47,731 nt of DNA from Seison nebaliae (Eukaryota). Of this stretch, positions 2,914 to 47,174 are shown one piece after another. Within the stretch, counting starts at the first letter, position 1; each line of letters opens with the position of its first letter. Made by a program: the position numbers and the translations under genes. The notes beneath the pieces were generated by a model, which was given only the letters and a program-made list of their open reading frames with translations, was not told where the DNA came from and made no database searches. Location of the stretch: positions 1 through 47,731 of the forward strand of contig JALJEE010001888.1 in NCBI GenBank assembly GCA_023231475.1. Reading direction: 5' to 3'.

Positions 2914-3531
2914 TCATGATGATGGTTCAATTTTTTCCCCATATTTTTTCACTACATAATTCTTCATATCTCCTATCATCAATTCGACTGGTTGTTGACC
3001 TTTGTAAATATCGGCGAATTCTTCGACGATTGTATAATGAAGTTCGAGGTCTTTGTAATTTACCGGTCGATTCATAGACCATACGGCCATATTATAATTC
3101 AATTTATTCTTTGAACTCGAATGTGCCAAAGCGGAAGAAGTTCCACATTTCAGGACATAATTATTCTTCGATGAATGATTCGTATACCATTCACCATCAA
3201 CTAATTTTTTCGTTGTTTTCGACATCATTCGAAAGAGAAATCCTTCGAAATATTTACCTCGTCCAATAATGGCAACTATTTTAAAATAAAATTAAAATTA
3301 AAATTTGAAAATATGAATTTAACCGTTCACTAAAAATGGACCTGATGTTCGTGATTTATCATGGAAAGCAAATATTTGGTATGGTGATGTTTGAGAGGAA
3401 TTCATTGGTCTTATTTTCGCACCATGACCTGGTATACCGTTCCTACAAACGGATTGTGGAAGATGTTTTCCTTTTGGATAAGCATGACTTAAAGACACCA
3501 CGAAAAATAGAATGAGAATGAATTGTTTCAT
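2914..3531 (-). CDS. Secreted Reeler-domain protein (defense-protein-like), 2 exons
   Basis: Signal peptide MKQFILILFFVVSLSHA, then YPKG..VC..GIPGHG..SPYQI. Intron 3276-3323 (GTTAAA..ATAG) joins to VAIIGRGKYFEGFLFR..G.W..C..ALAHS..W..TIV, the Reeler pattern. Confidence 0.8.
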
Positions 3532-3682
3532 ATTCTTTCTTTTTAAATAATTTCTATAATTAATCGAGAACTATTTTTACTTTTTATTTGTGTCTTAAGA
3601 CTGTTAAATGGTAAAGATGTTTAAATGAATGATGTTAAATATTATGAGATGTTGATTAAAAACAAAAGATGATAAAGGTCAG

Positions 3683-5334
3683 TCAAGTTGGAACATCGTC
3701 AGGTAGCGGAGAAGGGGCATGACTATCATTCTTCAACGACGTCATCATATTATTATTAACGATTGACAAGTGATCTCTCTCTTGATGATTATCATCATTG
3801 GATGGATTTTCATTCGTCATTTCCTCAGAAGTTTTCTTCAATTTTAATTTATTCTTCTTATTACGAAATGTCTGTTCGACGTCATCATTTTCTTCAATTC
3901 CCGGAGAGACGAATGTCACTTCCAAATCAACTTGACCAATCTAAAAAAAGAAAATAATATGGAAATTTCAAATTTTAAAAATTATTTAACAATTGATGAT
4001 AATACTTCAACAGCATCTTTATGACGCGCTGTCCTTAAATCGATGTCGTTCACTGAAAGAATTGCGTCACCAACATTCAAATTGTTAGATCGTTTGGCTG
4101 GTCCTCCTTCATGTAATTCTGAAATTAATATTGGTACTCCATGTTCTCTTCCTCCCTACATTAATTTGAAAGTAAATAAATAATAATTAATATTATAATA
4201 AATTATCAAAAAATCAATTATAACTGTTATCGACATTCCGAGACCTTCATCTTTCCATTTGTTTAAAGAGACTCGACGAAGAATTCCGATTTGTTTCTGT
4301 TCTGTCGATTTCATTTGAGATTCGTTGTGTGATTCATTAGCATCAGCTTTCCTTCCATCTCCACCTTCCAATAACATATTTTTGTCATGATCGTCATCTT
4401 CCAATTCCTCATTTACTTCATTCTCAAAATGATCGTCATTTGTTGGTAATCTCTTCGGTCCCTGACAAGCTTTCACAACGGCTTTGTGTCGATGTAAATG
4501 GATTTCTGCTTCCAATTGACACCAAAGACGTTCGTATTCGTCTTTGGGTAAATCGCGACCTAGTAATTGAAGTTGTTGGATACGACCAGCTAATTCCTTA
4601 TCGAGATATCGAGTGGCTAAACGAGAACCGAATAATTCAGCTCGACTTTCATTCAACGAATTTTGAAGCCAATTAATTTTTTTTTTCAAAATTTCATTTT
4701 GTGATTCTAATCGTTTCTTTTGAATTATCGCTGAATTCATTTCTTCTTCCATCTTCTCGTGGATGTCGTTGTCGAATTTCTTCTTCATTTTTTCCGCTTC
4801 CGTCGAATCAATAACGGAAGTTCTATTATGTTTGGGTGAATCGTCTTTAATGGATTGGGTTGGTGAACCGGCTTTATGTAATTGAAGTTGTGCTAAATGT
4901 AATTGAGAGAGAAGTTGTTGGAATTGATGATTAATCGCTTCATTTTTACATTGAATATCAACATTATCTTCCTCCATCGAATGGAGACGAACTTCCAATT
5001 TCGTCGTTGATTGTAAAGTGCTCAATGTTTTGTGTGCTAATTGTGTCCAACTGGAACAAATGGTATTTAAATGATTTCTTATCGTATCGATTAGTTCAGT
5101 GACACCGGAACCTTTTTCGATCGTTTCGTCTAAACCGGCGGCGATGGAAATCGCTTCTAATTCTCCCAACAACAATTCGATATCAACATACGAAGTATCG
5201 AAATCCTGTTCGAGAGTATCTAGCCAACGGAAAGCATTCATCGACGTGGTGATGTCGTTGGCAATCGTTTCGTCGTTTCCTAATCGACTGTTGGAACTGG
5301 TGGATGAAGTGGAAGTTTTATTAGTCTTCTCCAT
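3683..5334 (-). CDS. GOPC: Golgi-associated PDZ and coiled-coil protein (PIST/CAL), 3 exons
   Basis: [13 protein letters not shown]-terminus, [24 protein letters not shown] and [17 protein letters not shown]. The PDZ domain [23 protein letters not shown] is reconstructed across a GTTATA..TAG intron; second intron GTTAAA..TTAG. Confidence 0.93.
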
Positions 5335-19996: not shown

Positions 19997-20808
19997 TTAA
20001 GTGAAATAATAATAGAAGAACAGAACAACAACAACAACAAATATCATTCCCCCAAATAAAATGATTCGATCGCCACTATTTCGACGTTCGATCATTGATA
20101 AGATTGATTGACTCAATCCAATCACTTTCCCCACATCCCACATCTTCCTCCTGACATTCTTCAGAACATCATGTTGATTCCTTAAATTGTGAATGACTTC
20201 TTGACCATGATCAATGAGATTATCTAATTCTTAAAAATTTTTTTTTTGAAATTTTCAAAATTTTTAAATTTTTTAGTAACGTGTATTGGCACCAGCTAAA
20301 CGATCACGATGAACTAGATCATCACCTAACGGAATAGCGATATCGTTGGATGGTTCAAATTGAGTTTGAAGTAATTCGTTCCTTCGTCTAGCTTCCGATC
20401 TCGCCTCTTTTCTTTTCCCCGCAAAATATGAGATATGAGAAAAAGAAAAAAACGAACAAACAATTTACTTTTCATTACTTCCATAGACGTCATATAATGT
20501 CGATGATCGTATTTCAATTGATCGAGTAGCATTTTGAACATTCCTCTTTCCGCCACATTTGACACATTCATTAATTGAGATTGTAATCTCTGTAGATGAT
20601 CAGTGGCGAAATTTCGATTCATTTGTTCGAATTCGATATTTATTCGTTTTAATTCATTCTCCAATTGATGGATTTGATTAGGATTAGCGAGATCACCATC
20701 ATTGTGATAGATGCGAACTAATTCGTCATTTTTCTCTTGATGCCATTCAAGTATTCGTGTAAATTGTGTTTCGAGGAGTTTACTCGCCTGTTTTATCGAA
20801 CGATCCAT
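19997..20808 (-). CDS. GOSR2: Golgi SNAP receptor complex member 2 (membrin/GS27), 3 exons
   Basis: DQLKYD motif, RRRNELLQTQF, SNARE region LDNLIDHGQEVIHNLRNQHDVLKNVRRKMWDVGKVIGLSQSILSMIERR and C-terminal TM anchor DRIILFGGMIFVVVVVLFFYYYFT. Confidence 0.92.
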
Positions 20809-20971: not shown

Positions 20972-23900
20972 TTATCGATCATATTTCTCATTAAGTAAAT
21001 AAAAAAGAAGATAAGCAGAAGATGAAATAATTTCTGATGGTTTCTTTATATTCACACGACTATCATCATATTCATACCAATGATCGTCGATGAAAGATTT
21101 GATGACACAAGTGTAATGGCCACTTTCCAACGTACCCGAATGATTAACGATTCCATAAAGATTGAAACATTTATTCTTCTTCTCCGACGGATCGTTCAAC
21201 AAAATCTTGAACGGAATCTCAACAAATTTTTGATTTTTTTCATAAGAAATATTCGTATAATCAAATCTGTTTAAAATAAAAATTTGAATTCTTTAAAAAT
21301 TAATTATCAGGAAATAAACCGTTTCAATACAATTATCAATATTGGTGGTAATCGCCATAATCTGATGTTTTTGATAACGGAACGTAATTCTTTACAATTC
21401 GGACAATTCCAACAATTATCCAATAATTCTTCTTGTTCGAATTTCTTCAAAAATTGACCAATACTACCACCATCACTTTCGATTGGTAACGACAATGTCA
21501 AAAACGGTTCAAATCGAAAACTTTCTTTTTTACATTTCTCACAAGTAATTGACGATCGCATTTGACCCTGATAAATTTATAGTTTTAAAAAAATTTTTAA
21601 ATTCGAAAATTTATTTTTAAAATAGAAATTTACTAACATGAAAATAATCGATAATAAACGAGGTATTTCTCTTATAATAATCGTTCCATTCTAATTCACT
21701 CATCAATTCTGGTGACATTCTCTTGGGATCATCTTCGATTTTCGGTTTGTTAAAATTTCCATGAGACTATAATAAAGCGAATGAAGAAAATGAGAATAAA
21801 ATAGATTAAAATAATAAATTGATAATTATTAATAATTATAATTAAATAAATTCATAAATATTTCAACGAACTTTATTGAGATCTTCGTGTAATTGATCAA
21901 GGAGAAATATGAGGAATTCTTGAGCGTCTTGTTGTTGAGAAGTGGCGAATTGTCGAGAATGTTTCCGAATAATTTGTCGAAATTCACTCACATCAGCTAA
22001 AAGTAAATAACAATTTCTTGATTGATTCGATCTCTTCGAACTGAGAATAATTTCTTTTTTTCTTATTTGACATTTAGAAATATCATTGCGAATTCTTGAT
22101 AATAAATATCGGCCGATATTGACGAAGGAATTTGTGATTTCACCTGAAGAACTCAATGGATTATTTTTGTTTGCACTTTTCAAATCATTCATTATTCTTC
22201 CATTACATATCTTATAAGAAATGGGTGGTGAATGAACTAAACATTGTAATACTGAATTGATATAACAAGTATTACCAACGTTCTCAAGACCAAGAGTAGA
22301 GCCTGGTCCACCAGAACCTTCACTACTTCCCACACAACTTCTCGACATCTGTTGATGGAATGACGCCGTTGCTGTCTGATTGAGAAGTGAAAGATATTTA
22401 GAGAATTTTTCTAATTCTTCTTTAATATTTGTTCTTGTCAATTTCTTCGAAGAATTCCGAATATTGACAATCGGTCGATTAATTTTTGATAAAATTTTAG
22501 ATGAATTCGAAATATTTTTCTCTTCTTTCTCACTTTTATCGATCACTTCACCGATGATATTCTCTAACGACTTCATAAACTTTTCATCACTTTTCGTCAT
22601 TTTATGATTCAATGGTAACTCGGTCTCTTTACATTCATCCAATTTCGATGGTTTCGGTTTCGAACTTCTATCAGGAATCATCTTTTTAATTTCTTCAATT
22701 TTTTTCTTCGATTCTTCATCAAATTTTTTTTTTGATTCTTCAAATTTTTCAATTTTTTTCTTCGATTCCTCTTCAAATTTTTCCTCAAATTTTTCAATTT
22801 TTTTCTTCGATTCTTCAATTTCATTTTTCTTTTTCGGTTTCGTTTCTCTGTCAGGAATACGTTTCGGTTTGTTAGTTCGATCTGGTATTGATGGTTTTGG
22901 AACCGGTTGTTCAAGATTCTCAACATCATTTTTTTCTTCTTCGTAAAATTCGTTTTCGTTAATTTCTTTTGTTTTCTCCATTTCTTCAATAATTTCTTTC
23001 GTATCATCTGAAATGATTTCATCTTCTATAGGAAGTTCATTGATAAATTGTTTTTTCTGACTCGTCACACGATGTGCCTCCACCATGTTATTGGTATATT
23101 GAGGATAGAAATAGGACCATTCGACAAAACCGTTTTCTAAACGATAAATTCTCTTTCGCGATTGTTGTTGAGTGAAAACATCGTAATCGGTCAATGCTAA
23201 TTCAAGTTTCTTATAAGTTTCCGTCTCTTCAGAAGTGGAATCGACAATAAAAATATAATCACAATCCTTCCGTCCTCGAAGTAGAACAGCGGCTGATTCA
23301 TCCAATCTTTTCTCAATTTCCCACATTGTTCGCACATCACCATCTTTCAACAATTCGAACGGAATATTTACCATTCTCATAATTTCTTTATTATTCTGAT
23401 TGAAATTGACAAGATAATCATTTGACAAATCGATATGACATAAATTATATTGATAAGATGATCGAATATCAATGACAAGATTATGATATAATCTCTTTTT
23501 CAAATGTTCGAACATTTTCGACGAATTTATTAAATTTATCGTTTCATTTCCAATTTCAGGATCTGATGGAATGAATTCTTCTTTTTCATTCACAATCTCT
23601 TTATTTTCCACATTCAATTTCTCTTCTTCTTTCTCTTCATTTTTAAAATATTCTTTCAACCATTTTAAACGATCAAACGCTGATGTTATCTCATCTTTCG
23701 ATGCAATATTATCGACGAATGATCGATTTTGTATTTTCACACACATCTTTGTCACTTCACTATGGAAATGGAAGAATCGATAATAGAAATAAAATGATCT
23801 TTCATAATCTTCTTCCTCATCTTTCTCCAATCCATATTTCAATAACGTTCGACAACCACGACTGATTTGTGATAAACTTGAAAAAAATTATTTATTTTGT

Positions 23901-24914: not shown

Positions 24915-26322
24915 TCAAAGAATTTTTTTCCTCATCAAATAATCCTAAAAAAACATACTCGATGATCAAATGAATCAAAATTAAACTACTAACTATTTCT
25001 AAGTTTTTCTGTCGATAAATTTCATCATCTCGATTATCGATGATTTTTCTCTCGCGAAGATATTTATTTAAACCACTTCTTTCCGCTTTTCTATCTTCCA
25101 CTCGTTCTTGAATGAAAAATACGACGATCACCAAAACGACCGTGCCAAGAAAGAAGAACGAATAATATCCCCAATACCAAAATTCATGTTCCGTATCATA
25201 CTTTCTCGTTTCGTTCTTTTCCTCATTCTCTTCTTTCACTAATTGTTCGAATGACTCCAAATTATTGGGCAGTCCTCGCTTCTTTCTGACAATTTCCTTC
25301 TTTTGAAATCCTCTCAATATTTCTGTGATTTTTTCTGGATAGACCATCGAATAATTTAAATGTTCAAACGAAAGTGTACCCAATAAGTGGAGGACAGGAA
25401 TAATACGTTGTTGAAATGATTCTTCTGATTCACAACTATGAAAAATTTAATTAAATAATTTCAATTTTTTAAATAATCATAATGAAATTAACAATTCTTC
25501 AATATAATATTCTTTCCACCGTTCGAATCCGATTTTAATCAATTGATAAATTGTCATATAAGAATTAGTACTAGCCAACAAATGCCTCGTACATTCGTCG
25601 AAGTAGTTTTGGAGATAATCAAAAATACTATCACTTAAGCTAAAATGTTCATCAATTGTATGACAATTGTCGAGGAGATACGATTTCATATATTCTAAAG
25701 TTTTAATGAATTCTTCAGTTATCATCAATTCCAAATGTTCTTTCGACAAATATTCATCCGTCGAACGTTCGTGAGATTCGTAAACGAAATTTTTAATTTT
25801 CTGATATTTGAATAAGAAAGTTCCTATCAATTTCTTCAAATCTTCCGTTTCTTCTTTATCCAATTCCTCCTCTAAATCCTCTTCGAACATGAACTCCCTC
25901 GTCGAAAATTTATCTGCAATTAAATGTGGATTGTTATATGTCATTTGTTCGGAAATATCTCCTTCGAATTTCTCATTAAATGAATCTCGAATCGTCATCA
26001 AATTGTTGTTTAGAAAAAGCTAAATTTAATTGGAATAAAAAAAAAATTTGAATTTTTGGGCAACTATTGAGAGTTTTGGTCTTTTCGATTTTTCTATTGT
26101 CTCCTGATAAACCGTTTCAACATCTTCGAACTCATCGTCTTTTAATTCGTATTGATCTGATTCATTTAATGAGAAATTAGTATTTTTCATTTGATAATCG
26201 AAGTGATATGCATCCTCGTATAAATCGTCGATTGGCAACCATTTCATATCTTCAGCTTCATCGCCCCAACACCATGACAACATGAGAGAAAAGAAGAAAA
26301 GTTGAATAATCATTCGAATCAT
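24915..26322 (-). CDS. Orphan type-I membrane protein (signal peptide, acidic helical ectodomain, TM near C-terminus), about 4 exons
   Basis: MIRMIIQLFFFSLMLSWCWG signal. Three GTT..AG introns join ORFs 26026, 25477 and 24880. TM segment YWGYYSFFFLGTVVLVIVVFFI; the last intron gives ..EIDYLMRKKIL*. Confidence 0.65.
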
Positions 26323-26538: not shown

Positions 26539-27097
26539 ATGAATAAACTCCTTCTATTTTCTCTTATTGGCGTTATCGCTCTCATACAAGCCGATTCAGC
26601 TGATGGTTAATTTCCATTTTTTTTTTGAGTTTCATTTAAATCCGATTTAGATCAAGCTTTTAACGATTTAGCCAATTTATCGTCCGATGAAGCTAGCTCG
26701 TTTTTGGAATCGTTACAAAAACGATTTTTCTCCAGTAAACCCAAATTGTCGAAAGAGGAAAAGGCGAGACAACGGGAGGCAGAAAATGAAGTGAATAAGA
26801 AGAATAAAAGGAAAACCAGAATGGCGAAAGCATATAAATTGTACGAAGATACATGTGAAACTCAAAAGAATATCGCCCAACGTTCTTGTTTGAATGTCGA
26901 TGTATGTCAAATGCATGGACAACCGATCACAAAAGCTGGTTTCCCACCAATCAATTCAGGTAGTTCTCGAGGATCAACTCGACGTACTTCCGGTAAGGAC
27001 ACTCCACCAACTTACAGGTACATTTTATTGTCTCATTTATTCTTCTAATCTCTTTTCATTCAGATCGTCATTCCGTTTCCCCAGTAGAAATAAGTGA
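26539..27097 (+). CDS. Orphan secreted prepropeptide-like protein, 3 exons
   Basis: MNKLLLFSLIGVIALIQA signal, acidic spacer, KR site, then a basic region with 3 Cys. Introns GTTAAT..TTAG and GTACAT..TCAG keep frame to ..SSFRFPSRNK*. Confidence 0.7.
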
Positions 27098-28128: not shown

Positions 28129-29807
28129 TCATTTCATCTGCTCCCCATCGAATGAACAGCAATGAATTAATGATTGTGGATATTTGAGTTTCCGTTTTCG
28201 ATCATTTCTCGGTAATGGACTACTCTCTATTGTACTGACATGTTCGTCCACGATATGTGTCTCGAATAATTCGAGTTTTTCAAAATATTCATCACATGAC
28301 AAACAGAAATAATCGCAATTTTTTGATGATTTGATAGTGGTGGGAGCAGTGAGACGTACATCCGTCATATCCACCAAATCTCCAATTGTATCGATGTGAA
28401 TAGATGAAGTTGATGATGATGATGGAAATTGATTCGATTTATTTTCATTCACTGTCATGAATTGGAATGAATCGATTGATGAATTTAAATTCGAAGGAAG
28501 GAATTCGGTGTGAGAAATCTTCTTTAAAATATCCAATTCGTCTGATGAGAGAAATGATCGTTTCCCTAAAATGTTGTTAATTCGATTCAAATTCATCTCG
28601 TTCAATTGTAAATTTGAATTTAAAATTTCTATCGAATCCTCATCATAATTATGTTGTTGATTGTCATTGGGAAATTTATTTTGAGTCGAATTCTCGTCTG
28701 TTAAAAGGAGATTGAGTAACGGAAAATTTGAATTTGATGATTTGCCAATATCGTTGTTTATAGTGGATGTTTCTTGATCAGTCGCTGGATTGACATTTTC
28801 GAATTCATTTTTATTTTTATTCATTTTTTTCTTCAAATCATTTATCCGTTGGATTGGATCGTTAAGTTTGGGCGAATCGTGACTCACTTGACTATTGAAC
28901 CATTGAACGATTTCGAAGAGATTCTTTTGTTGTTCCGTTTCTCGACAATTATTCCCAAAACCTAATTTCTTTGTGTCGATATCATTATCCGATTTTTTTT
29001 CACCACAATATCTTTCCTTCAATTTCGACAAATTTTTCAAACTCTCTTCAAATGAAATATCGGATAATTTATCTTCCTTCTTCCTCAAATCATATGCTTT
29101 GTCGAATGAATCGATATTTTGTTTCTCATTCGATTGATATCGTTGACAATCATTCAAATATCGAGAAATGATCGAATGATTCTGAGAATTTCTTGATTCA
29201 ACTCCATTTGCACCGATCGAAGATGTGACTGTCGATGTAGTCGTCGTATTAACGATCGTTGTCGACGGTTGTAATGATAATGTTGATGGTGTTGACGAAA
29301 GAAGGAAATTGTTCGAATTATTAATTTTTCCTGAAAATTCAAAAAAAAAATTTTATGAAAATTTTTATAATAATTTCTTTAAATATTTAAATGCAAATTA
29401 ACCTTGTTGTTGTTGTTGTTGTTGATGATGGAAATGAGATGTTGATCGTTCGATCTGTTCCGCTTTCGTTTCCATATTCCGAATACTCAATTTGGGAATG
29501 GCTAATCGATGTAGTCGCGTCACGTATAATGGAGTGGCACCGTCAGATTGGAGGCCTTTATTGACGACATGATATTCGTCTTTGTTGAAATGTCGAGAAC
29601 AAACGGTCATATTCGCTTTCATCTTATAATCCATTTAAAAAAAAGATTTAACGATAATAATGGAACTTCAATATGGAGATTATTCTCACCGATGGCACGG
29701 AGCCATGCCATTCGTCTTTCCGGATCTTTCGGAAAGGAGAAATATGTGACATTCTTATCTTTGTTATAATGATTGCCACAACCAGTGACGATACATTTCT
29801 TCGGCAT
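28129..29807 (-). CDS. THAP-domain protein with a C-terminal C2H2-like finger, 3 exons
   Basis: MPKKCIVTGC..FSFPKDPERRMAWLRAI|..VCSRHF..LAIP is a THAP C2CH domain with an AVPTIF-like box, split by a 44-nt GTTCCA..AAG intron. PolyQ follows, then YFCLSCDEYFEKLELFETHIVDEH near the C-terminus. Confidence 0.85.
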
Positions 29808-30251: not shown

Positions 30252-32985
30252 ATGGATCAACAAGACACAACGGAAACGACGGAAGATACTGGAGTTCTTC
30301 TCAAACGAATGTTTTTCAACAACGTCGACGAATATGTCGGAAGAGTTATAGCGAAAGTTCATACATTTATTAAACTTTACAAAATTTTCAAATTCTCTCA
30401 AAGTTTATGACATCGAAACGATTCGAGAATTACAACGAAGAAGAAGGGGAAATAATTGACGACGAAGATAAATCCGTTCATGATGATCCTCGAAATCATT
30501 GGACTTGTTTAGGAACGGTCAACAACCCCGAATATGTCAAACCCGTATACATTGAGAAAATAGTGAATGTTAATTCAAGATCATTCATTGTCTTAAGTGA
30601 TCGGAGATCATTTTTTAGAAAGCTCATCGTGACGAATTGGAGGAAACTATAAAGAGTTGTGACGCCATCGTTTATGATATTTCTTTAGCATCTGAATTTG
30701 AAATTGATGAAGCGGTTTTTGTTGCCGAAATGATGATGAAGGAATGTGAGAATTTTGTGGATCAGAAAATGTTCATTCTCATTTCTAACGTCTTAACTTG
30801 GGCCAATACGAAACAAATGGAAGTTTTATTTCTTTTCTGTTTTGAAGAACATTCAAAATCATTTCTCAGGAAGAGGAAGATGACGCTCCATTTTCCGAAG
30901 ACGATTTCCGTCGACGACGACCTCATCCAAATTATAAAGATCATTTCGAAGCGGAAAAGCGAATTATGTTTTGTGGACGACATGTTCCGTTTTCTTTCCA
31001 AAAATTTTCATTCAAATTCTATTTTTTTTTTTAGAATAAGAAAAAATTCATAACTTATGTCGTGTCCACGGGATTCTTATATGGTTATGGTGAATTTTTA
31101 TTCCAAGATTATTTCAAACGATGTTGGTTGAACAATCAAACTATCGACGTTTACGGTGATGGCACCAATACACTTCCATTAATTCATGTTGTAGATTTAG
31201 CCAAGTTTTTCTTTTTTAATATTTAATTATTTAATTTCTTTTAAAATAATTAAAATTAAAATTTATTTGTTTATAGTATTGTGTTGAATGTGGCTGAGTC
31301 TAAACCGAAACCCAAATTTTTAGTAGCAGTTGATGAGACTAATCATACGTTGAGTGAGGTAGTGAAAGCGATTAATGGAGTGTTAAATAAAGGTCGAATA
31401 AAATATGTGATGAAAGAAGATGCATTTCGAAATAATGATTTGACGGTTCGTCCATTTTTCATTAATTTTCACAAAATATTCTTATTATTTATTAGCAACC
31501 AATGATCGATATGTTATCATGTTCTATGAAATTGGATGGAATTTACGTAAAAGAAAATTTCAATTTCGATTGGGAATGCGAATCAGGTTTCGTCGATAAT
31601 ATTGAACAAGTTGTCAAGGAATTTCGAATTCATCGTAGTTTAGAAGTTTCTTTTTTTTTTAATTTTCAAATTTTAATTTTTAAATTTTAATTGTCAATTT
31701 TCGTTAGCCATTCCGTTTAGCGATTATTGGACCTCCGGCAGTGGGTAAAACTACATTGGCGAAACAACTCGCTCTCCAATATAAGATCCATCATTTGACC
31801 GTACAAAATTTGATTCAATCATTTCTTGAAGAAATGCAAGTGTCTGATAATCAAGCGAGTTCAGAAGATACTCCGTCTGAGGACGAAGAAACTAACTTCG
31901 ATGATTTACAACAAGACAAAGAATTGTTCGCTTCTGTGGAAGAGGCGAATGTTGGATCAGGTGGTCGATTATCAGACGAAGTATTAATTCAATTATATAA
32001 GCGGAAATTGAAATCGACTCCATATCAAAATCAAGGATTCATCATTGACGGTTTCCCAAAAACGGAAGAGCAATTACAAGATTTATTCGTGAATGATGTG
32101 GATGTAGCTGAGAATACGGAAGGTGATGAAGATAAAGAAAAAGAGCCTCAATATAATAAATCGATTACTCCAAGTAATTCTTCTATATTCACTTCTCCTT
32201 AACTACAAATTTTAGATGCCGTTTTTTGTCTCGATGCCAATGACGATTTCTTGAGTGATCGAATTATGAATCTACCAGAATTGGAAGTTAGTGGAACGCA
32301 TAATAATGAAGAGAATTTCCTTCGACGAATCGCTACTTATCGAAAAACAAATATGGAAGAATCAACTTCGGTCGCTAATAAATTTGGTGAATTAGATATT
32401 ATGGTGAAAAGAATAAGTTGGATTTTTTAAAAAATTTTCTTTAAAATTCTTTTTTTTTTAGGTGTAGAAGATGATACTTCAATTCTTCATTTGAATATTT
32501 TGAATGAGATTAAAGAGATAATTGGGAAACCTCGGAATTATGGTATGACAATCGAAGAGAAGAGAATGATGGAAAAATTGGAAGCGGAAGAATTATTGAA
32601 GAAAGAGAATGAAGATCGAGAACATCTGGCTCAATTGGAGATGGAGGAGAAATTAGAAAATGAGAAAAATGAAAAGAAATGGGTTAATAATTAACGATTA
32701 TTTATAGTTTCAAATAAATTCATCATCAGAATGAAAGATTGATGGAAATAAAAAAAGAGGAGATTGAATTACTCGAAGCAAAGTCGTTACCTCTGCGGAA
32801 TTATCTTATGAAATATGTGATGCCAACTCTGACGAAAGGAGTCCTCGAATGTAACACGTTAAGGCCAGATGATCCTATCGATTTCTTAGTTCATATTTTC
32901 AATTATTCTTAATCAAAATTCTCTCAATTGTGTTTAGGCGGAATATCTGTTCAAGAATAGTCAAGAATTTATTGATATTCAATAA
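30252..32985 (+). CDS. AK7: Adenylate kinase 7 (ciliary/flagellar), 12 exons
   Basis: [63 protein letters not shown]-loop [28 protein letters not shown] and a C-terminal Dpy-30 motif [32 protein letters not shown]. Eleven short introns restore frame. Confidence 0.93.
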
Positions 32986-33274: not shown

Positions 33275-33806
33275 ATGTGGAAAATTTTAAGTTTAATTTT
33301 TCTTCTTCATTTCGCATATTCGTTACACGAGGATAAGGTGAAACAAGAAAGTTTCCATTCAATTCTTAATTAAATTATTTAAATTATCGTCATTAGATAT
33401 CTGTGATCAACCGTTACAAATCGGTTCATGTAGAGCGTTGGAATCTCGATATTATTATGATAAGGAGAGTAAGGAATGTAAAGAATTCACCTATGGCGGT
33501 TGTCATGGCAACGAGAATAATTTTGAGAATTATGAACAATGTTATGTTCAATGTATCCTATTATCTCAGGGAATAGAAGAGGCGGAAAGTGCCACTGATT
33601 TAACAAAAGAATTCGGCACAATTGATGCAATGGATGATGCAACTTTCGAGAAGGAATTCAAAATGAAGAAATCCTTTTACGATGAAACTATGAAAGATGC
33701 TTATGACCATTTAACAGAAAAGGAAAAAGAGGAAGCAAAGAAAGCTAGTTACATGGATATCAATGAAATTCCAAAAGAATATCATCAATTTGAAGGTAAT
33801 CACTAA
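33275..33806 (+). CDS. Secreted single Kunitz/BPTI protease inhibitor (P1 Arg) with acidic C-terminal extension, 2 exons
   Basis: Signal MWKILSLIFLLHFAYS. After a GTTTCC..TTAG intron: CDQPLQIGSCRALESRYYYD..CKEFTYGGCHGNENNF..C..C. Confidence 0.9.
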
Positions 33807-34023: not shown

Positions 34024-34337
34024 TTAATTTTCGGCCATTTCAGCTTCATAATATTGTTGGACTGCGAGAATAAATTCTTTGAAACTGACACAATTATCAT
34101 CGTTCTTATCACACTTGTCCCAGAACTTCTCAAAACTTATTTCCAATTCCAATTCCTTCATAAAACAGGAAATTAAAAATTATAAATTAATTAATAAAAA
34201 TAAATAATTATAACTTTAGCACGTTTCTCATAAACATCTCTCAATTCTTCTTTACTCAACCGGAAATCAGCATTGTCATCGTTGGCATTAAAATCTTCTC
34301 CAACTAATCGGATGAGTTCGACATATTCACCGCCCAT
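34024..34337 (-). CDS. Small (84-aa) two-EF-hand calcium-binding protein, 2 coding exons
   Basis: MGGEY..DDNADFRLSKEEL..KRAK|ELELEISFEKFWDKCDKNDDNCVSFKEFILAVQQYYEAEMAEN*, joined by a GTTATA..AAG intron. Confidence 0.8.
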
Positions 34338-34494
34338 GATTGAGTATGAAAAGAAATATTTTAGAAGATCTGCTGAAAGTTTCATATACAAAAAATAGAT
34401 GTGTTCAATAAACAACACGTGAGTGGGTGTTGGATGAAGAATGATAAATTTTAGATTAGATCATTGTCCACCATTCGGTGATGACGTCAAGTCG

Positions 34495-35415
34495 TTACTT
34501 ATCCTTTTCCTTATCGAAAGAAATGGTATCTGTGCTATTATTTCGTTTTATCGAATGGAAGTTTTGTTTCCCTCCGAAATCGTTCACAGAATAAGAAGAA
34601 AACGAATTATCGATCACATTCGATTGGAGTGACGTGGTAGTTGATTGGAAAAGTTGAGGTAAAACCTTGAAATTATGTCTGTCCATTTGTCTTCCAATTC
34701 GACGATATTTCTTTTGACTAAAAATCATCAAAATGATAACTCATACCAGATGAAAATGGAACTTTATATTTTTGATATTTGGAATTTTCGTTAGACGATT
34801 TTTCATCACCAGATGTTTTTGGAAATCTTTTCTGTGTTCGCTAACGGTAGAGACGTACGGTTTTGTTTTGATAATACGGAGGAAAAGTTTTTCATTCTCT
34901 AAACGTAACCGATTTTGTGTATCGGAGTAACTTCGTATTGCTTGTTTTGGGATTAATGGTCCGTCATCGATCGAAGGCTTCTCCAACGTAGCGTCATATC
35001 TGTCAAAAACTCATATTTATTCATATCAAATTCTTCATATTTATCGAGTCATCAAAAAAATTTTATTTTCAAAATTTTTATTAGATAATTTTACATATAA
35101 AACTAATCTTGTTTTGAAAATTATACGAAAATTTTGTTTACGGAATTAATTTAAATGTCAATGACTCATCTTATAACATTTACTCATTTATATTCAAAAC
35201 TGTCGAGATAATGAAGAAGAGAATAACCGTTTCATGATTTTTGGAATATTTCTTGGCGTTCTGTTAATGGTGGTGGTTGAGTTGGGCATTCTTCGATGAG
35301 AAGTTCTTAATTCGATTTTCGCAATATTTTCCACTAAACGTCTGTTGGCTTTTTCGATTTCTTCCTGACGGTGGAGAGCAGTTGTTCGAAGAGCGGAAAT
35401 GCTATTCTGTTCCAT
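34495..35415 (-). CDS. CFAP97-domain (KIAA1430/Hemingway-like) ciliary protein, 3 exons
   Basis: EEIEKANRRLVENIAKI and RLRLENEKLFLRIIKTKPY..EHRKDFQKH..RL resemble the two CFAP97-domain helices. Introns GTTATT..CAG and GTTCCA..TAG; X-box upstream. Confidence 0.65.
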
Positions 35416-36638: not shown

Positions 36639-39029
36639 TTAATGAATGAATGGATTATTTATGATCCTGAAATGGAGATAAATGAATAATGGAGAATAAG
36701 TGAGAAAATCGAGGAAATCAAAATTCATATCATTCTTATTAATCACTTTCAATTTTCTTCCCGCTTCTCGCATTCGTCCTTCATCTATTCCACCGGCCTA
36801 ATTTTGATGATTCAGAAAAATAAAATAATTTCAAAAATAATTTTTATCGATTTATTCTCAGATGAAAAAACAATTCCTTCTAACTTTCAAGTCGACGAGT
36901 ATATCGTCAATAGACAGAGTCGTCGTTCCATCACAACCATTTCTCATAATTAAATATTCCCATAATTGCCGAAGTTCAAATGTTTTCATTTCTAACGACT
37001 TCAAATCGAATGCTGGCAGCACATTCAGAATAGAGAATAGTCCCATTTCTTCATTCAACCAAGGTATCCTTCTCGCTAATGCCGCTATTATGTGGAACAA
37101 TCGTCGAGAAATATTCTTTTCATAATTCTTCTCCAACTCACCTTCATTCCTTTGCGAATAGTTTAATAGACACAAATTTCCATTAGAAATTAAGGAACTT
37201 GTTTTTTGATGAATCTTCGAAAGATATTTGGAAAATATCTCGGAAAGTTTCCGATGTCCTCTTCGTGATGTTCATGATACGAAGTATTCGTAAAAGGTAA
37301 TCCATATCTGAATTCGACATAGCTATCAAAAAAATGTAAGCTTCAATAATTCAAAATGAAAAATGGAAAAAAACCATAAAATTTTTTTAAGGCCGATAAT
37401 GTTCTTTCTAAAGATATAAGTTTGTTTCCTTTCGATATTCTATCATATTGACCGTTCAATACACGAACATCGTTCGCGTCTTTGAATATACAATTTTTCA
37501 ACAACCAATCGATATTATTCACATCGTCCTGTATAAGAGCCGTTTCATTATCACTTTCAACTGGAGATTTCTCATCTTTTGTCGGTTGTTTTTGTTTCGA
37601 TATTTTTCGTTCTTCATAATCTTCTTCAATTATTTCCTCTTTTTTTTCGGAAATAAACGATGAAAAAATATCAGTTGTCGATTTCAAATTATCGAGATCT
37701 TTTCTCGTTCTGTTAGGAATATATTCGTTCCTGATAATTCGGGTATTATTCTGACTAACATTGTTTGAACGTGTCTCTTCCATTAATGGCGGATTTGGTA
37801 TTGATTCACTATCTGAATTTTTTTCATTGCAAGGAATTATTTGCAGTGAAGTAGAATTTTTCACATCTGGTGGTTCAATTAAAAATGAAATCTCTCTTGA
37901 TATTAGATCATTATCATAATTCACAGAATTATTTTTTACTGTTTCCTTTATCGGCAGGTATGAGTGCAAGGAAATATTTTTGCGTTGTTTTTTCAGTTTC
38001 CGAGTTTGGAAAGATTTTGGTTCTTCATATTGGAAATAATTTATAATTTTCCTTCTTTTGAAAGTATTTAAAGTTTTTTCGCGCATTTTATTTTCCGTCG
38101 ATATATTATCGTTCTTTTGGAGATTGTTCCGTTGTGGAAGATCGTTCGCAGTGTATAATTTTTGACAATCCAATTTAAAGGAATTTTTATTTGTTGAGAA
38201 ATTAGAAAATCCTCTAATTCCCCCTTTCCGAAGTTCATCGGGTGACTGAAAATTCATCAAGTTTCTTGAATAATTGTTCAATGTAAAATCATTCGGGTGA
38301 TTCATTTGAACTTTCGAAAGGAATGGGGTACTGACTGATCGTAATTTATGGAAATCATCAGATGATCGAAAACAATTGTTTATATTTAAAACATTATCCG
38401 TTATCTCATCATACTGCAAGAAAAAAATTTTAGCGAATATTTCAAAATTCAAACTGATTTATTATCGTAATATTTCAAATACGATGACATTGAATTGGAG
38501 TAAAGCGTTTTGGTAATTTCTGGATGTCCCTTATAGATTAATTCACCGTTAATTTCTATAAAAAATTTGTCAGTTTGAGAAGTTGTTGGAAGAAGATTTC
38601 GATTGTCCATCTTCAACGATGTCCTTCCATCTCGTCCATCTAAAATTGAAATGATAAAATTGAGAGAATCGAAGAAAGACAGAACATACAGATGAAATAT
38701 GAGAAGTTGCATATGAATTGAAATTACGTTTTCTCTAACAAATTCATTCAGTGGAATTGATTAATAAAATGATGAACTTTCCATTTGTGATAGGAGAGAA
38801 TTTCGTCTGAGAACTCATCAACATAATCCGTTAGTTTCCCGAACAAATGAGCGAATATTTCCCAGTTCTGGTTGAATGAAGAGATTCTGATAAGTTCACG
38901 TTCAGATTCTTCGAATAAATCATATTTCTGTGAATAAGTCAAATCTCCTTTCTTTTTATACCAGATTGTATTCTTATCAATTTGGTTATTTCGTTTAGAT
39001 TCTCGATATTCAAAGACATTATAACTCAT
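36639..39029 (-). CDS. Uncharacterised protein with degenerate EF-hand-like C-terminal region, about 7 exons
   Basis: Six GTT..AG introns join ORFs 38748, 38449, 37343 and 36858 and a last exon (LK|AGGIDE..DFLDFLTYSPLFIYLHFRIINNPFIH*). The C-terminal helix-loop-helix pattern looks EF-hand-like. Confidence 0.65.
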
Positions 39030-41279: not shown

Positions 41280-41364
41280 GACAATCGGTCAACCAGTTGA
41301 TAAATTGGTGCTTCATTTTTCATCAACTAACAAGCTAAGTATATCGGTTAACTCGCAATCCGAA

Positions 41365-44300
41365 ATGTCTGGAAATCTTCAATTGGAACTTGAGGTCGAT
41401 GAATTATTATTGGAATATTTTAATTATTATTTAAAATCTCCTGTTATCTTCAACGTTTTTTAAATAATCAATAATTTTAATTTTCAGAGTTTACCAATAG
41501 TCGTCGAATATGATAAGGTCAAGAATAACATACAACTGACAACCAACACAACTTTATCATCCGAAATTACAATATGTCAATATGAAGAACAGAAGTTGAC
41601 TGAGTTATTGAATGGATTAAGTAATTCTACAAATGTCACAAGAAGTCATTTCCCACTACCACACTTTCTAAGGTTGGATGGTCAGAAACCGCAAACAAAT
41701 TCGACAAATAATCAAGTCACTTCGGTCGATATCGAATATAGAAACTCGAATTTGTTCGAATGGTTAAATTGTGAACGATTTAATTTTTTCATCAAGTTTC
41801 CCGACTTCTCTTTGTCTTCTTCCATAATAAATTTAAATAGAACTGAACTCTATCGAGAGTATTTACTTTGTCAGAATTTATTGGCACCAACAACAAAACC
41901 AAAATGTTATTCAACTTCTGCAAGATTGAACAATGACACGTATCGACAATTATCTAGTCGTCTTTTAGGCGGAAGAAGTTACACAGGTTAACCATTTTAA
42001 CCTCCATCTTAATATCATTTTTGTTTTCATTTTATTTTTTTAAATTTCCATTTTATTTTTTTTAAATTTCCCTTTTAATTTCATCTTATCTTCCATCAGA
42101 ATTAAGTTTTACAACTGATTTGATTGATAAGCAAACAACTTCGAGGACTAAGGGACTTCATTCAAATAATAAAAACAAAACCAAATCAGCCATAATCGAT
42201 AGAGAAAACGGTTTTAAATTTTTTTAAATGATACAATTTAAACTTTTTGATAGATGACAGAAGAGTAAAATCGAATAGTTCCTCTTTTATTAGTTGGACA
42301 AAATTCCAACACAAATACACCAAGTCCAAGAATATTCCTTGGACCATTCTAATGAAAGAAATTAATCCATCGTTTAGTCAATTCTAATAGATATTTGAGA
42401 ATATTTATTTGTAGAAATGAATCGAATGAAAATTATCAAATGGACGTTGAAGCGTCAAAGAAGAATTTACAACGAAAAATTCTGGAAGAGAACCATGAAA
42501 AATTTATCGGAAATGTTATATCTTTCTTATTTCATTTAATTTTATTCTTCAATTATCAGTTAAATGGAATGAAACGTTTCGTCAAGTATTTGCGAAACAC
42601 GAGTGGAATTTATTTATATCAATTTTGGATGGATGTTGAATTCTTTAAACAAACCATGAAAATTTTCGATGACATACCACAAATGCCTAGTCGTGCTAGA
42701 GATTTAAGGTTTCCATCATTTTCTTTCATAATTTTTTCTTTTTAACGAATTTTTTAGACGAATATTTTTTCTATTTTCTCATGTATTCGACGAGAAAACA
42801 TGGAATGCATTAACAGAATTCTTCCAAGAGAATAACTATGAAATTCGACATAACATTCTCAACGACGTTCAATATAACATTTTACGACGACTTCGTAGTT
42901 ATTGGGTTCCACGATTCATTCTCAATGAGATGACATCGAAAGAATTCGAATCGATTAATTTCGCTCATCAAATCAATTTAGTCCTAGAAGATTTTGATAA
43001 GAAAATGATAGAACCAATCTCGACCATTATACATGACGACCAAATGGAATTATTTGATGATATCGATATCTTCAAAAACGAAAATAAAACACAATTTTCT
43101 AATCGATTGCCACAATACTTCATCAACATGGCCATTTGTGGTGATATGGATTATGGTGCACCATTTTTAGAATATGTTTGTCTGTTAGTTTAAAATTTTC
43201 AATTTTTTTTCAGTTTTCTTTCCTTTAGACAACATTCGGATAAATGTATGGCGATACTTCTGTTTTGGATGGATACGATTCGTTTATATAAGGACTGGTA
43301 TCGATTAAGTGATGATGTTCGATTAGAACAATGTTGGGCGATGTATCATACATATCTGGATATCAGGAGTAATCTCTATTTGAGTTTGGAGTGAATTATT
43401 TAAAAATTTTTTTTGATTGTTCTTTTGAAATTGATTAGATTTTGATTTGAATGAGAATCATAAAATTCGAAATTTATTAATGAATGTGAAAGAAAATAAG
43501 AAAACAGATATTTCACAACGATTCGATGAAAAAAGGCGATCTCTAATATCGAAATATAGCGAAGGAAAATATCAATCGATTGACAATACTGTGAAATTTT
43601 CGAAAACTAATAGTCGCAGACCGTCATTGACTATAACTAGAGAGATTCAAAAGAACGACGATTATGAGGAGAAAGTGAATGAACGAAGAGTCCGAGAAGA
43701 ACAATTGAAACGATCGATGGATAAATGTGGAGATATTGAGGAGAATAAGAATGTTTTAGATATCAACATATTTTCCTATTATCGTAATACAATTTTATTA
43801 CCGATTGTGAAGATGTTGTGGCTGAATTATGTGAAGTATGATATCATTAAATATCGAATGTTTATTTGTTGAATATTTATTTATAAAATTTCTCTATTCT
43901 CTTCGATTTTAGTGCGGTCATCAATAGTTGCATTAGATTGTTGAAGAATTATGGGAATAAAGTTTTCGCGAACAAAGTTCAATTTTCCCATTGAGATTTT
44001 GAGATTTGATGTTTTTATCGTTCCAGAATGAAAGTGAGGGGGAGAAGAACGGTGAAATGTTCAGTATTCAAGACAATAAATTAAGGGAACTTATCGTACA
44101 GACATTGCAGCCCCAATTGCGATATGAACGACAACAACTTATTCTCAATTGTGATAGTATGGAAAGGTCGGTGTAATAATATGTCATAAAAGATCTTTCA
44201 TAGTCTTCTACCGAATTCTCTTCATTTTCAATTTATTCCTATTAAGTTTAATGGAATATGCTGAAGAACTGATCTCGATCGACCATCCTGTAGTAACGAC

Positions 44301-47174
44301 AGTTGTTACGAACAATTCAAAGAAGGTGAAATTAAGCGAAGGAAAAATTGAAAAGAAACGACGTCTGACTGAAGATGAACGACTGGAACGGAAGAAGTTT
44401 TATGAGTTTATGGATAAACAAAGAAAGAAAGTTTCACATTAAAGAAAATTATTCATAAATTTTCAAATTTGTAGACTGTTCGAGCGGTTCTCTCTCGTCA
44501 GAATGCTGATCGGAATAAGGCGAAATTGAAGAAATTAGCAGAACGAAAGAATCAAGAGAAGAATGATGATAATAGTGAGACGATAAGAGAAGAGATTGAA
44601 GAGACGATTGATGAAGAGATGGTAGAATTGAATCGAAGGAAGAAAATCGAACAAAAATTCGACAGTTATTTAAGTAATGACGGGTTAATATGCTTCTGAT
44701 TCCGAATAATCCGAAATTGATCCGAATTCCTTAACAAACAATTTCCATCAATTAGTTTATTTCAATTGATGGTGAATGAATTTTCAAAAAATAAACAACG
44801 TCAAACTTTCGTACCTCCATTACAATTCGTCAAACAGACTAATCAGCTAACAAATAGTAAATTAAAAGTTATTTGTCCATTATTATTTATATTTTTGTAA
44901 TAAATTTTATCCATATTTTATTTTGGATTGATCATTAACTGTTGAATTGAAATATTGTGAATGAAATAGAATAAAAAACAAAAATTTTCAAAACTTTCAA
45001 CCACATTCCTCAGCGGGAAAGCAGCTAGTCGTCTCAAAATGATATTAGACAAAAAGGAACAAATTGTATTTGGTGAACATTTGAAACAAGCACAATTATC
45101 GATGCAACCGGCTTTCATACAACTGTCCAACTTACTCCGAGACAAAGTAACACCAGTTTTTGAAGTTCAACAAGCCACTTAATTTATGGTTTTGTATTTG
45201 CCCTTTTTCCAGGATTTTTATTCAGATGAAGCAAATAGAACGGGAAATGATGGTGAAAATTTCAGAAAATTTTTAGATTTATCCACCGATGAATTGATTA
45301 ATAAATATACAGAATCAGGAATACCAATTTTCAATGAAAATGATAAGCAAACGGATAATGAGGACGCATTTGATGTTAACATAATTATCGAAGTTACTTT
45401 CAAATTTAACGTCAAAAAATGAAGAATAATAATAATATATTTAGCCATGTACGAATGGAAAGAAGACACCAAATGATCTTGATAAGAAGAATTTCGTCAG
45501 TTTATTAGAAACGGTTGCTACTGGAGGTATAAATTTAAAGCAGAAAATTACATCTTCTTTCGACTTGTCAATGATGACGGACAATAAGGAGATAACGGAA
45601 GAACGTAAAACATTATTCCGAAATTATCAACATCAATACTCTCATTATTTGGCATTTCTCAGCAACATCTGTGGTGAAGTGATTCATAAGAAGAATACAG
45701 GAAATAGTTCAAACGCATCTCAACAACAACAACAACAACAGCAAATTGCTCAATCGATTGTTAATCAAAGTCGTCGTCAATCGACATTGACTTCTAATGA
45801 TAGTTTGACGGTAAATGGGACAAAAGAATTTGGAATTGATATACCGTATGGTAGACAATTATTTGAAGCGCTTCCAATTTTGAAGAAACGGAGTCCGTAT
45901 GGTCATAAAATGGAGAGAATTCTAGGAATCAACGGAATTGAACCAATGCAACAGGAAGTAGCTGAAACTAAATTGATGGTTCCAAACCATTTGGACGATT
46001 TGGCGAAAGCATTAACGGCAAAAGGAAAGAATATCAGTTCAACGTTAAAAAAGAAAGATCCAGAAATCGAATTAATTTTTCCTTCAATTAATTGTTCTAT
46101 TCGAAATTCAAATAACGAAAATCTTCCATGGTTGGACAACGATCTAAAGTTTTATGTGGAATTACTTCGATTCAAAGTTTAAAAATTTTAATTTTAACAA
46201 TTTTTTTATTCAATTTTTAAAAAAATTCAGGAAATTTGTCATCCTAAATCGAATGTGGAATTGAATCGAGCGAAAGCATTATATCTAATTGATTCATTTC
46301 TCAATTGTAAAGTATTCATTCCACCAGCCATGCAATTAGATATTCCGGTTGATATCGGAAATCGATTGATTAAAAATCTTGAAAAGTTTCATATTTTCTT
46401 CTTTTCCCTTAAAATTTTTCATAATTGATGATTGATAGATATTCAAATCAATTACATTCCGGTGAACATACAAGTAGCACAACAGGAATTGGTTCAAGTT
46501 CAACGTCGGCCGTTCAACCACGTTCCTCCAAAGGTGGTCGAAATACTCCGTCGGCAAGAATGGGCGGAAATAGTGCCCAAGTGCCTTGTCCAATGTGTTT
46601 GAATAAAGATCAATTACAAGTAATTGATGATTGTCTATTACATATACTCACATTATTGTTACCATATTATTCTTGTTTCCATCAGTACTACAGGAAAGAC
46701 TACAATCGATTTTACGATAATAAATACGCAGGTTCTTTCTAAATTGTTTATTTTTTGTATTAGATTTTTTCGAAAATAGTCACCAAAAGACAAGGAAGAA
46801 TTCTGCAACGTTACAAATTCTATGATACTGATGATCAACAACCTCTGGAATATTCGATTGATGATTTGAGAATTAATATAAATGATAAATCTGTTCCAGT
46901 AGCGAATTTACCTTTACCCGATAAGAAACGGTCAGATTCGAGACAAAAGGATCAAAATAAATATTCGAATGCACCACTTAAGATGACTCTTCTTAGTGAT
47001 CCGAATTCACTTCCACCGATAATGGAGAGTCCACGACCATCAAACACTAGTAAACAAGCAAGTCGAAACAACGCCTCAATAAATCTACATTTTTCACTCG
47101 TCTCCGGATTAACGGTGAAGAAGGCGAATACTCAATCATTTACTAACCAAAATAATATGGAAATTAAAACATGA
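41365..47174 (+). CDS. RGS22: RGS22-like regulator of G-protein signalling (RGS22/RGSL1 family), about 21 exons
   Basis: DELLLEYFNYYLKSP, WL..ERF..F.K|TELYREYLL, F.KYLRNTSG..LYQFWMDVE, RLRSYWVPRF, LLFWMD, NDLKFYVELLRFK and KALYLIDSFLN..IPPAMQLDIP (RGS22 has IPPALQIDIP). About 20 short introns keep one frame to TGA 47174. Confidence 0.78.

What the first reader, a model, noticed from the sequence alone, without database searches (positions are those of the whole stretch)
3276..46779. Window-wide rewired 5' splice-site code: introns begin GUU, not GURAG
Seen: of about 66 introns inferred by restoring reading frames, about 61 start GTT (4 GTA, 1 GTC). None starts GTAAG/GTGAG and only about a dozen have +5G. 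In genes pinned by conserved protein sequence: AK7 10/11 GTT (GTTCAT, GTTAAT, GTTTTA, GTTCCG, GTTTTT, GTTCGT, GTTTCT, GTAATT, GTTGGA, GTTAAT, GTTCAT), USP8 4/4, NPC2 2/2, GOPC 2/2, THAP 2/2, Kunitz, Reeler. The exonic -1 base is G in only 2 of 11 AK7 junctions. Known: metazoan U2-type donors are AG|GURAGU, with +3 purine pairing U1 nt 6 and +5G pairing U1 C4 and the U6 ACAGAGA box. AT-richness alone would predict A about as often as T at +3. Inference: this lineage recognises a GUU donor, through a changed U1 5' end (e.g. nt 6 U>A), an altered U6/U1C/LUC7/PRP8, or intron definition driven by length (40-75 nt) and AT content. I do not know of a description of this.
Basis: partly seen in the sequence, partly recalled or inferred. 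Interest (0 to 1): 0.88.

Follow-up and report, generated by a model that had tools for sequence, protein, structure and literature searches.

The report
Animal whose introns start GTT
In this stretch of DNA from the tiny marine animal Seison nebaliae, about nine in ten predicted introns begin GTT instead of the GTA/GTG that dominate in related rotifers, likely because a small splicing RNA has changed the base that reads this position.

Summary
Confirmed from DNA and protein evidence; no RNA was available. The window is from Seison nebaliae. Two NCBI-annotated proteins map onto it with 31 introns, 29 starting GTT. A profile of 39 AK7 homologues ranks all 11 AK7 junctions first. My curated set gives 57 of 62 GTT (unfiltered 64 of 78) and none GTRAG. 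AT-richness does not explain it: bdelloid-like introns of similar composition and length are 23 of 86 and 26 of 86 GTT. The donor is MAR|GUU(A); +5G is at decoy level. Canonical U1 pairing barely separates true donors from unused GTs (AUC 0.56; bdelloid-like donors 0.91). A one-base-shifted register and transposon-born introns are not supported. Mechanism untested, as no genome is held: most likely U1 nt 6 U>A, as in Entamoeba (0.45); U6/U5-led or protein-led reading are rivals. I found no description for an animal in six literature searches. This scan noted the same pattern before on two other pieces of this genome (unchecked AI notes), and GTT donors in unrelated protists.

The parts
30252..32985 (+). 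AK7 gene (NCBI SNEBB_005092, P0121), 11 introns: 30357-30403, 30569-30618, 30823-30869, 30984-31034, 31205-31276, 31446-31495, 31646-31707, 32174-32215 (GTA), 32417-32461, 32683-32729, 32889-32937; 10 GTT
   Evidence: exact mapping; alignment to two solved AK7 chains; homologue profile ranks each junction first; 11 of 11 recovered by donor-neutral predictor
41365..47174 (+). 1556-aa gene with no Pfam family (NCBI SNEBB_005098, P0122), 20 introns from 41443 to 46779; 19 GTT, 1 GTC (44167)
   Evidence: 19 of 20 recovered by donor-neutral predictor
3276..3323 (-). Intron of Reeler-domain gene, ACG|GTTAAA, 48 nt
4156..4224 (-). GOPC intron 1, ACA|GTTATA, inside PDZ motif GLGMSIT^GGREHGVP
3941..3990 (-). 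GOPC intron 2, ATT|GTTAAA
11093..11978 (+). Five ab initio introns of a gene without Pfam match (donors 11093 GTC, 11324 GTA, 11517, 11735, 11922 GTT)
   Evidence: ab initio only
20230..20280 (-). Intron of V-SNARE_C (GOSR2-like) gene, CAC|GTTACT; an upstream intron near 20407-20460 has only GTT donor candidates but an unresolved, purine-rich 3' end and was left out of counts
21267..23939 (-). USP8-like gene, four GTT introns: 23939-23877, 21871-21767, 21637-21568, 21319-21267
21997..22071 (-). Probable fifth USP8 intron, in frame and stop-free; donor GTC (22071) or GTT (22041), unresolved, not counted
24490..24796 (+). NPC2/ML-domain gene, two GTTAAT introns (24490-24561, 24744-24796)
24945..26064 (-). 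Three ab initio GTT introns (26064-26020, 25492-25436, 24993-24945)
   Evidence: ab initio only
26606..27063 (+). Two ab initio introns (26606 GTT, 27018 GTA)
   Evidence: ab initio only
29331..29666 (-). THAP-domain gene, two GTT introns (29666-29623, 29402-29331)
33351..33396 (+). Kunitz gene intron AAA|GTTTCC; the more canonical AAG|GTGAAA at 33338 does not restore the frame
34156..34762 (-). Two ab initio GTT introns (34214-34156, 34762-34718) in two small genes
   Evidence: ab initio only
36785..38777 (-). Six ab initio GTT introns (donors 38777, 38685, 38454, 37374, 37198, 36884); an unused canonical AAG|GTGAGT lies at 37141 in a predicted exon
   Evidence: ab initio only

Best explanation
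The GT-AG introns inferred in this Seison nebaliae window use a donor MAR|GUU(A), with U at +3 in about 90% and no preference for G at +5, likely because the U1 snRNA base facing +3 has changed from U to A (predicted 5' end ACUAACCUG, possibly with nt 9 C>U to read the exonic A). Shown: the donor motif, its excess over composition and over bdelloid-like controls, and the failure of canonical U1 pairing to mark donors. Inferred: a short U1 helix over -2..+4, helped by U5 loop 1 on the A-rich exon end, plus cross-intron definition of 41-60-nt introns (the first AG at 41 nt or more is the acceptor in 60 of 62; the nearest GTT giving 41 nt or more is the donor in 50 of 62). Untested: any snRNA or protein of this species.
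For: +3 carries 1.1 of 2.0 bits beyond GT relative to 1251 unused GT sites, so U appears selected, not merely tolerated. Canonical U1 duplex energy is -1.5 kcal/mol for true donors, -1.4 for decoys and -4.6 for bdelloid-like donors; AUC 0.56 vs 0.91. 19 GTRAG sites lie unused in window genes, several in conserved domains. All 23 bdelloid-like katanin GTT donors have +5G or -1G, whereas 37 of 57 Seison GTT donors have neither. Best single U1 change is nt 6 A (AUC 0.74), best double is nt 6 A + nt 9 U (0.79). AAGTT is under-used in coding DNA (24 vs 41, z -3.1; z -2.2 with a stricter shuffle) while its reverse complement is not. Precedent: Entamoeba GUUUGU with U1 ACAAAC, and Mastigamoeba.
Against: No U1 was seen, and the fitted variants only restate the logo. 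A U1 changed only at nt 6 keeps C4 and should still favour +5G, yet +5G is 9 of 57 among true GTT donors vs 19% among decoy GTT (p=0.2-0.6). Among GTT sites alone the variants separate true from decoy poorly (AUC 0.62-0.69). Micromonas, Thecamonas and 69 yeasts have atypical donors with a standard U1. U6 G44 also faces +3, so a U6-side cause gives the same logo. AAGTT depletion ranks only 18th of 651 five-mers, and Val codon choice after xAA shows no significant effect (p=0.48).
Confidence: 0.45

Rival explanations
1. U1 pairing is degenerate or dispensable and the donor is chosen at the U5/U6 step: U5 loop 1 reads the exonic AA, and +3U pairs with U6 G44 by wobble or with a changed ACAAA box.
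For: The signal sits at -3..-1 (A-rich) and +3, with nothing at +5/+6, resembling an extreme U5-class donor. PMC11732430 (passages) says G44 faces +3, that U5 loop 1 can compensate for weak U6 pairing, and that Cyanidioschyzon splices without U1. About 35% of metazoan BUSCO genes are reported missing in this species.
Against: Pairing to canonical ACAGA separates true from decoy donors no better than U1 does (AUC 0.59); loss of +5G removes the central U6 pair too; the described U5 class is AG|GU, whereas -1 here is A in 32 and G in 15 of 62.
Confidence: 0.25
2. The snRNAs are canonical and a protein (U1C, LUC7, PRP8 or a U-binding factor of the TIA1/NAM8 type) has changed so that it prefers +3U.
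For: Several lineages with atypical donors keep a standard U1; Entamoeba U1C is highly diverged; U-pseudouridine contacts can contribute in human donors.
Against: No protein was examined. A general U-binding factor would not give a single sharp position with U reduced at +4 (18 of 57 vs 42% in non-coding decoys).
Confidence: 0.17
3. Selection on donors has relaxed and +3U results from AT/T-biased mutation, with introns defined by length alone.
For: Total donor information is low (2.0 bits), and the nearest GT giving 41 nt or more is already the donor in 46 of 62. Bdelloid-like introns already have 27-30% GTT.
Against: Intron bodies are 51% T and 33% A, and internal GTs are followed by T in 32 of 67, yet donors are 57 T vs 3 A (p about 1e-12). 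+6 to +12 sit at background while +3 does not.
Confidence: 0.06
4. Canonical U1 reads the donors in the +1 shifted or bulged register (G|UUAAGU type).
For: It explains +3U, -1A and +4A without a U1 change; shifted and bulge scores beat the canonical register (AUC 0.69 and 0.71 vs 0.56).
Against: It needs G at +6: 5 of 57, equal to decoys (10%); 0 of 57 are GTTRRG. In human such registers cover about 1.5% of donors.
Confidence: 0.04
5. The pattern is an annotation artefact, or the introns are recent transposon (introner) insertions carrying GTT.
For: No RNA junction was seen; how the NCBI models were made is unknown to me; my curation dropped more non-GTT than GTT predictions; introns are slightly more alike than shuffles (30.9 vs 28.0).
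Against: 13 of 29 NCBI GTT introns have no frame-keeping non-GTT GT donor within 45 nt, and 19 of 29 have no GTA/GTG one. The homologue profile prefers the GTT junctions by 8-43 bits. The same kind of predictor gives 30% GTT in bdelloid-like DNA. No terminal inverted repeats, no target-site repeats (36 of 62 with none) and no family-level similarity.
Confidence: 0.03

Closest known systems
Entamoeba GUUUGU donors with co-evolved U1 ACAAAC (Roy and Bowser, bioRxiv 10.1101/2022.06.08.495308; abstract and sections 12, 14, 15, 16 read)
   Same: U at +3 replaces the purine in nearly all introns; short AT-rich GT-AG introns.
   Different: Entamoeba is intron-poor and keeps a strict hexamer with +5G (97-98% GUUUGN). 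Seison genes here are intron-rich (11 introns in 723 codons, 20 in 1556), have 0 of 62 GTTTGT, no +5G preference, and A or C favoured at +4. It is an animal; its U1 is unknown.
Bdelloid-like katanin loci from metagenomes (L001-L071, 71-96% identical to Adineta steineri P0069)
   Same: Same GC content (28-35%), intron length (median 53) and T/A-rich bodies; a minority GTT class; A often at -1 in flanking genes.
   Different: +3 is A/G in 62 of 86, +5G in 62 of 86, GTRAG in 27 of 86; katanin GTT donors are always backed by +5G or -1G.
U5-class (AG|GUNNN) versus U6-class (NN|GURAG) 5' splice sites (PMC11732430, passages)
   Same: Information on the exon side and none at +5.
   Different: Here a single class, -1 mostly A, and a near-fixed +3U that neither class has.
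Shifted and bulged U1 registers in human donors (PMC4856993, passages)
   Same: GUU start, A at -1 and +4.
   Different: Rare in human and needs +6G, which is absent here.
Non-canonical GA/GG donors in the copepod Eurytemora affinis (PMC5714493, search listing only)
   Same: An animal with lineage-specific donors.
   Different: Changes +2 in about 12% of introns; here +1/+2 are canonical and +3 changes in about 90%.

Membership tests
U2-type (major) spliceosomal introns | GT...AG ends | tested here: met
   All 31 NCBI junctions have a GT-AG solution; one search enumerated all dinucleotides, one search printed only GT/GC-AG solutions
U2-type (major) spliceosomal introns | Metazoan donor consensus MAG|GURAGU complementary to U1 ACUUACCUG | tested here: not met
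   0 of 62 GTRAG, 3 of 62 +3R, AUC 0.56
U2-type (major) spliceosomal introns | YAG acceptor, pyrimidine tract and branch point | tested here: inconclusive
   YAG 55 of 62, AAG 7; no tract beyond general T-richness; TGA/TCA enriched but not positioned, CTAA scarce
U2-type (major) spliceosomal introns | Excised by U1/U2/U4/U5/U6 in vivo | not testable with these tools
   no genome, no RNA run among holders
U12-type (minor) introns | GTATCC/ATATCC donor (motif recalled) | tested here: not met
   0 of 62 in the hexamer list
Entamoeba-type transformed donor with co-evolved U1 | U at +3 in nearly all introns | tested here: met
   57 of 62
Entamoeba-type transformed donor with co-evolved U1 | Strict GUUUGU hexamer with +5G | tested here: not met
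   0 of 62 GTTTGT; +5G at decoy level
Entamoeba-type transformed donor with co-evolved U1 | U1 5' end changed to complement the donor | not testable with these tools
   no snRNA in window; no genome
+1 shifted / bulged U1 register donors | G at +6 after two purines | tested here: not met
   0 of 57 GTTRRG, +6G 5 of 57
Introner (transposon-derived) introns | Sequence families, terminal inverted repeats, target-site duplications | tested here: not met
Introner (transposon-derived) introns | Lineage-specific positions not shared with other animals | not tested
   no genomic homologue of a window gene with introns was fetched; the two NPC2 positions match my recollection of human NPC2 (recalled, no call)

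The most novel reading that the evidence does not exclude
Seison is an intron-rich animal whose major spliceosome has been recoded genome-wide: the U1/U6 pair with +5G has been abandoned and a single +3U, read by a rewritten snRNA or by a U1-independent U5/U6 route, marks tens of thousands of ancestral introns that changed in place.
Probability: 0.55. Interest if true: 0.87.

Novelty: new variant of a known kind. Interest (0 to 1): 0.74.

Why it matters
The animal donor consensus is thought to be held in place by pairing with U1 and U6. The six known rewirings listed by Roy and Bowser come with massive intron loss. An intron-rich animal that has switched +3 and dropped +5G would have had to change a very large number of sites together with its machinery. 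This makes it directly testable which component (U1, U6/U5 or protein) sets the consensus. Bdelloids, with about 30% GTT donors, offer a possible intermediate. In practice, gene predictors and splice-site scorers trained on other animals would mis-score this genome.

Tried and rejected
No whole genome is held, so U1/U6 and splicing proteins could not be sought. No RNA holder listed. Runs X1 and X2 behave as DNA (contiguous across AK7, no intron-skipping joints), X6 and X7 laid nothing, and reads were laid on 28000-42000 only; this is no evidence either way on splicing. Rfam finds only a tRNA and one sub-threshold hit in the window. The window's katanin is intronless and long-branched and did not place the organism; the names came. 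An apparent +5G enrichment over intron bodies (11 vs about 4 expected) vanished against context-matched GTT decoys, so I rejected it. GTA depletion in coding DNA (z -6.8) disappeared when codon-boundary dinucleotides were kept. No positioned branch-point motif. Shifted register and introner origin rejected. Of 80 katanin loci I aligned 32 and used the 16 with at least 70% identity to P0069; their 86 introns fall at only 8 positions, so I added 86 ab initio introns from 15 flanking gene models, which are noisier (+5G only 32 of 86; 9 of 26 GTT with neither +5G nor -1G). The tree is the quick one (clade support 90, unstarred). One monogonont-like locus (L014) gave one well-pinned intron, GTA: too few to use. 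The Atlas look-up of the repeat protein gave no answer. The two supplementary files of PMC8351084 were listed, not read; its transcript-mapping table may bear on RNA support for junctions.
Full report
Source. No genome is held for the window. Searches with two window exons each returned one longer protein, 100% identical, from a contig of 47731 bases, named by NCBI as hypothetical proteins SNEBB_005092 and SNEBB_005098 of Seison nebaliae. Seisonidea belong to Syndermata (Rotifera-Acanthocephala); the species has a compact genome of about 32-34% GC (PMC8351084, passages). No RNA holder was listed, and the two runs that could be laid behave as DNA. Every intron below is therefore inferred from protein evidence or prediction, not from transcripts.

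The observation. P0122 gives 20 introns, 19 GTT and 1 GTC. How these NCBI models were made is unknown to me, so I tested them three ways. (a) Of the 29 GTT introns, 13 have no frame-keeping non-GTT GT donor within 45 nt and 19 have no GTA/GTG one. (b) A profile of 39 AK7 homologues (of 149 returned; the best 53, filtered by length; P0121 left out) ranks the annotated junction first among 3-19 GT/GC-AG alternatives at all 11 introns, 8-43 bits above the best other non-GTT donor. Two solved AK7 chains align across most junctions without gaps. (c) A gene predictor with no donor model beyond GT/GC, trained on the other gene, recovers 30 of 31 introns exactly. Applied to 16 further regions it predicted 47 distinct introns (35 GTT). 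I kept 31: 13 in genes with Pfam or PDB support (13 GTT) and 18 ab initio (15 GTT, 2 GTA, 1 GTC). I dropped 16 (7 GTT, 9 non-GTT) that lay in doubtful gene ends, broke a Pfam domain, split one long intron or had an unresolved boundary. Curated total 57 of 62; unfiltered 64 of 78. A probable fifth USP8 intron has a GTC or GTT donor and is not counted.

More than chance. GT is followed by T in 40% of window sites and 32 of 67 intron-internal sites, and intron bodies are 51% T and 33% A; 57 of 62 has p=4e-12 against 0.51. As a biological control I scanned metagenomes with Adineta steineri katanin, aligned 32 of 80 loci and kept the 16 with at least 70% identity, which group with A. steineri (quick tree, support 90). 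Their 86 distinct introns match Seison in GC and length but read +3 A55/C1/G7/T23, +5G 62, -1G 47, GTRAG 27. They lie at only 8 positions, so the Fisher p-values are inflated. Flanking genes predicted with the same kind of donor-neutral model gave 26 GTT of 86, +5G 32 and -1 A33/G29. So bdelloid-like rotifers have a sizeable GTT minority and often A at -1, but the near-fixed +3U and the loss of +5G are seen only in Seison here.

Anatomy. Against unused GTT sites, true GTT donors differ at -3 (A/C 43 of 57), -2 (A 36), -1 (A 31, G 12) and +4 (A 23, G 2), but not at +5 (G 9 of 57 vs 19%) or +6. Information beyond GT is 2.0 bits, 1.1 of it at +3. Acceptors are TAG 40, CAG 15 and AAG 7, with no distinct pyrimidine tract or positioned branch motif. 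Lengths start at 41 nt with median 50. The first AG at 41 nt or more is the acceptor in 60 of 62; the nearest GT giving 41 nt or more is the donor in 46 and the nearest GTT in 50. Nineteen GTRAG sites among 1251 unused GTs lie in window genes, and in the Kunitz gene AAG|GTGAAA is passed over for AAA|GTTTCC 13 nt on.

Mechanism. Shown: canonical U1 pairing hardly marks Seison donors (AUC 0.56; -1.5 vs -1.4 kcal/mol) but marks bdelloid-like donors well against the same decoys (0.91; -4.6). Inferred: something reads +3U positively. The simplest candidate is U1 nt 6 U>A, the best single change (0.74), with nt 9 C>U the best second change (0.79); this fit restates the logo and is not independent evidence. 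Entamoeba is the precedent: GUUUGU donors with U1 ACAAAC (bioRxiv 10.1101/2022.06.08.495308, sections 12 and 14). Against it: the same paper found standard U1 in Micromonas, Thecamonas and 69 yeasts with atypical donors; +5G should persist if U1 C4 still paired; and U6 G44 also faces +3 while U5 loop 1 reads the exon end (PMC11732430, passages), so a U5/U6-led route predicts a similar logo. I put U1 at 0.45, U5/U6 at 0.25, protein at 0.17. The shifted register, a lead from earlier notes on other genomes, fails here: +6G 5 of 57, GTTRRG 0 of 57. Introner origin is unsupported. Weak support for selection against cryptic donors: AAGTT is under-used in coding DNA (z -3.1, or -2.2 with a stricter shuffle; rank 18 of 651 and of 613), but a Val-codon test is not significant.

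What is known. Searches for Seison with intron or splice-site terms, rotifer or bdelloid donor terms and atypical animal donors with U1 co-evolution returned no description of Seison donors. The passages read in the two papers holding both 'Seison' and 'splice site' do not treat them. A 263-species intron survey does not mention Seison in its main text. The library lacks most subscription journals, and supplements were not read, so an annotation paper may have noticed it. This scan's notes e1-10700797 and e1-10419817 report the same pattern on two other pieces of this genome. They are unchecked AI notes on DNA I did not see: a hint that the trait is genome-wide, not evidence.

Verdict. The feature is real within the window and is not explained by composition, annotation bias, shifted pairing or transposons. 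It works like the Entamoeba rewiring at +3 but is not a member of that type (no strict hexamer, no +5G, intron-rich animal). New variant of a known kind; interest 0.74; the cause can be decided by one snRNA search on the assembly.

Noticed in passing
window 6654-10805 +: Intronless ORF of 1383 codons with about 14 imperfect 40-residue repeats (…HQSAKFG…QKNGT…DQKGSVFQP…); Pfam gives only weak repeat-driven hits with no stretch passing on its own; Atlas gave no answer.
   Followed up: partly
window 1265-2710 +: Katanin p60 is intronless and long-branched here, whereas the bdelloid-like orthologues have up to 8 introns; suggests intron loss or a retrocopy.
   Followed up: partly
window 21997-22071 -: Probable in-frame, stop-free intron in the USP8 catalytic domain, missed by frame-based reading; donor GTC or GTT.
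   Followed up: partly
window 20407-20460 -: First intron of the GOSR2-like gene ends in a purine-rich stretch with two AG candidates and no T-rich AG; the 3' end may be unusual.
   Followed up: no
window 29438-29616, 29941-30360, 32010-32175, 38763-38941 and 39900-42000: Runs X1 and X2 hold low-depth contigs about 83-93% alike over exons, and the Snf7 region breaks into many divergent short contigs: a second lineage in the samples and a second Snf7 copy or haplotype are possible.
   Followed up: no
window 784-856 -: One tRNA gene (Rfam 75.9 bits); anticodon not determined by a tool.
   Followed up: no
L002, L023, L068, L022 (katanin flanks): Shared gene order in bdelloid-like contigs around katanin (WD40 protein, EF-Ts-like and cysteine-dioxygenase-like genes; names recalled from the printed translations).
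   Followed up: no
intron bodies, whole window: The dinucleotide AC is strongly under-represented in introns (observed/expected 0.37 vs 0.79 intergenic) and TGA/TCA over-represented; a changed branch-point preference is possible.
   Followed up: partly
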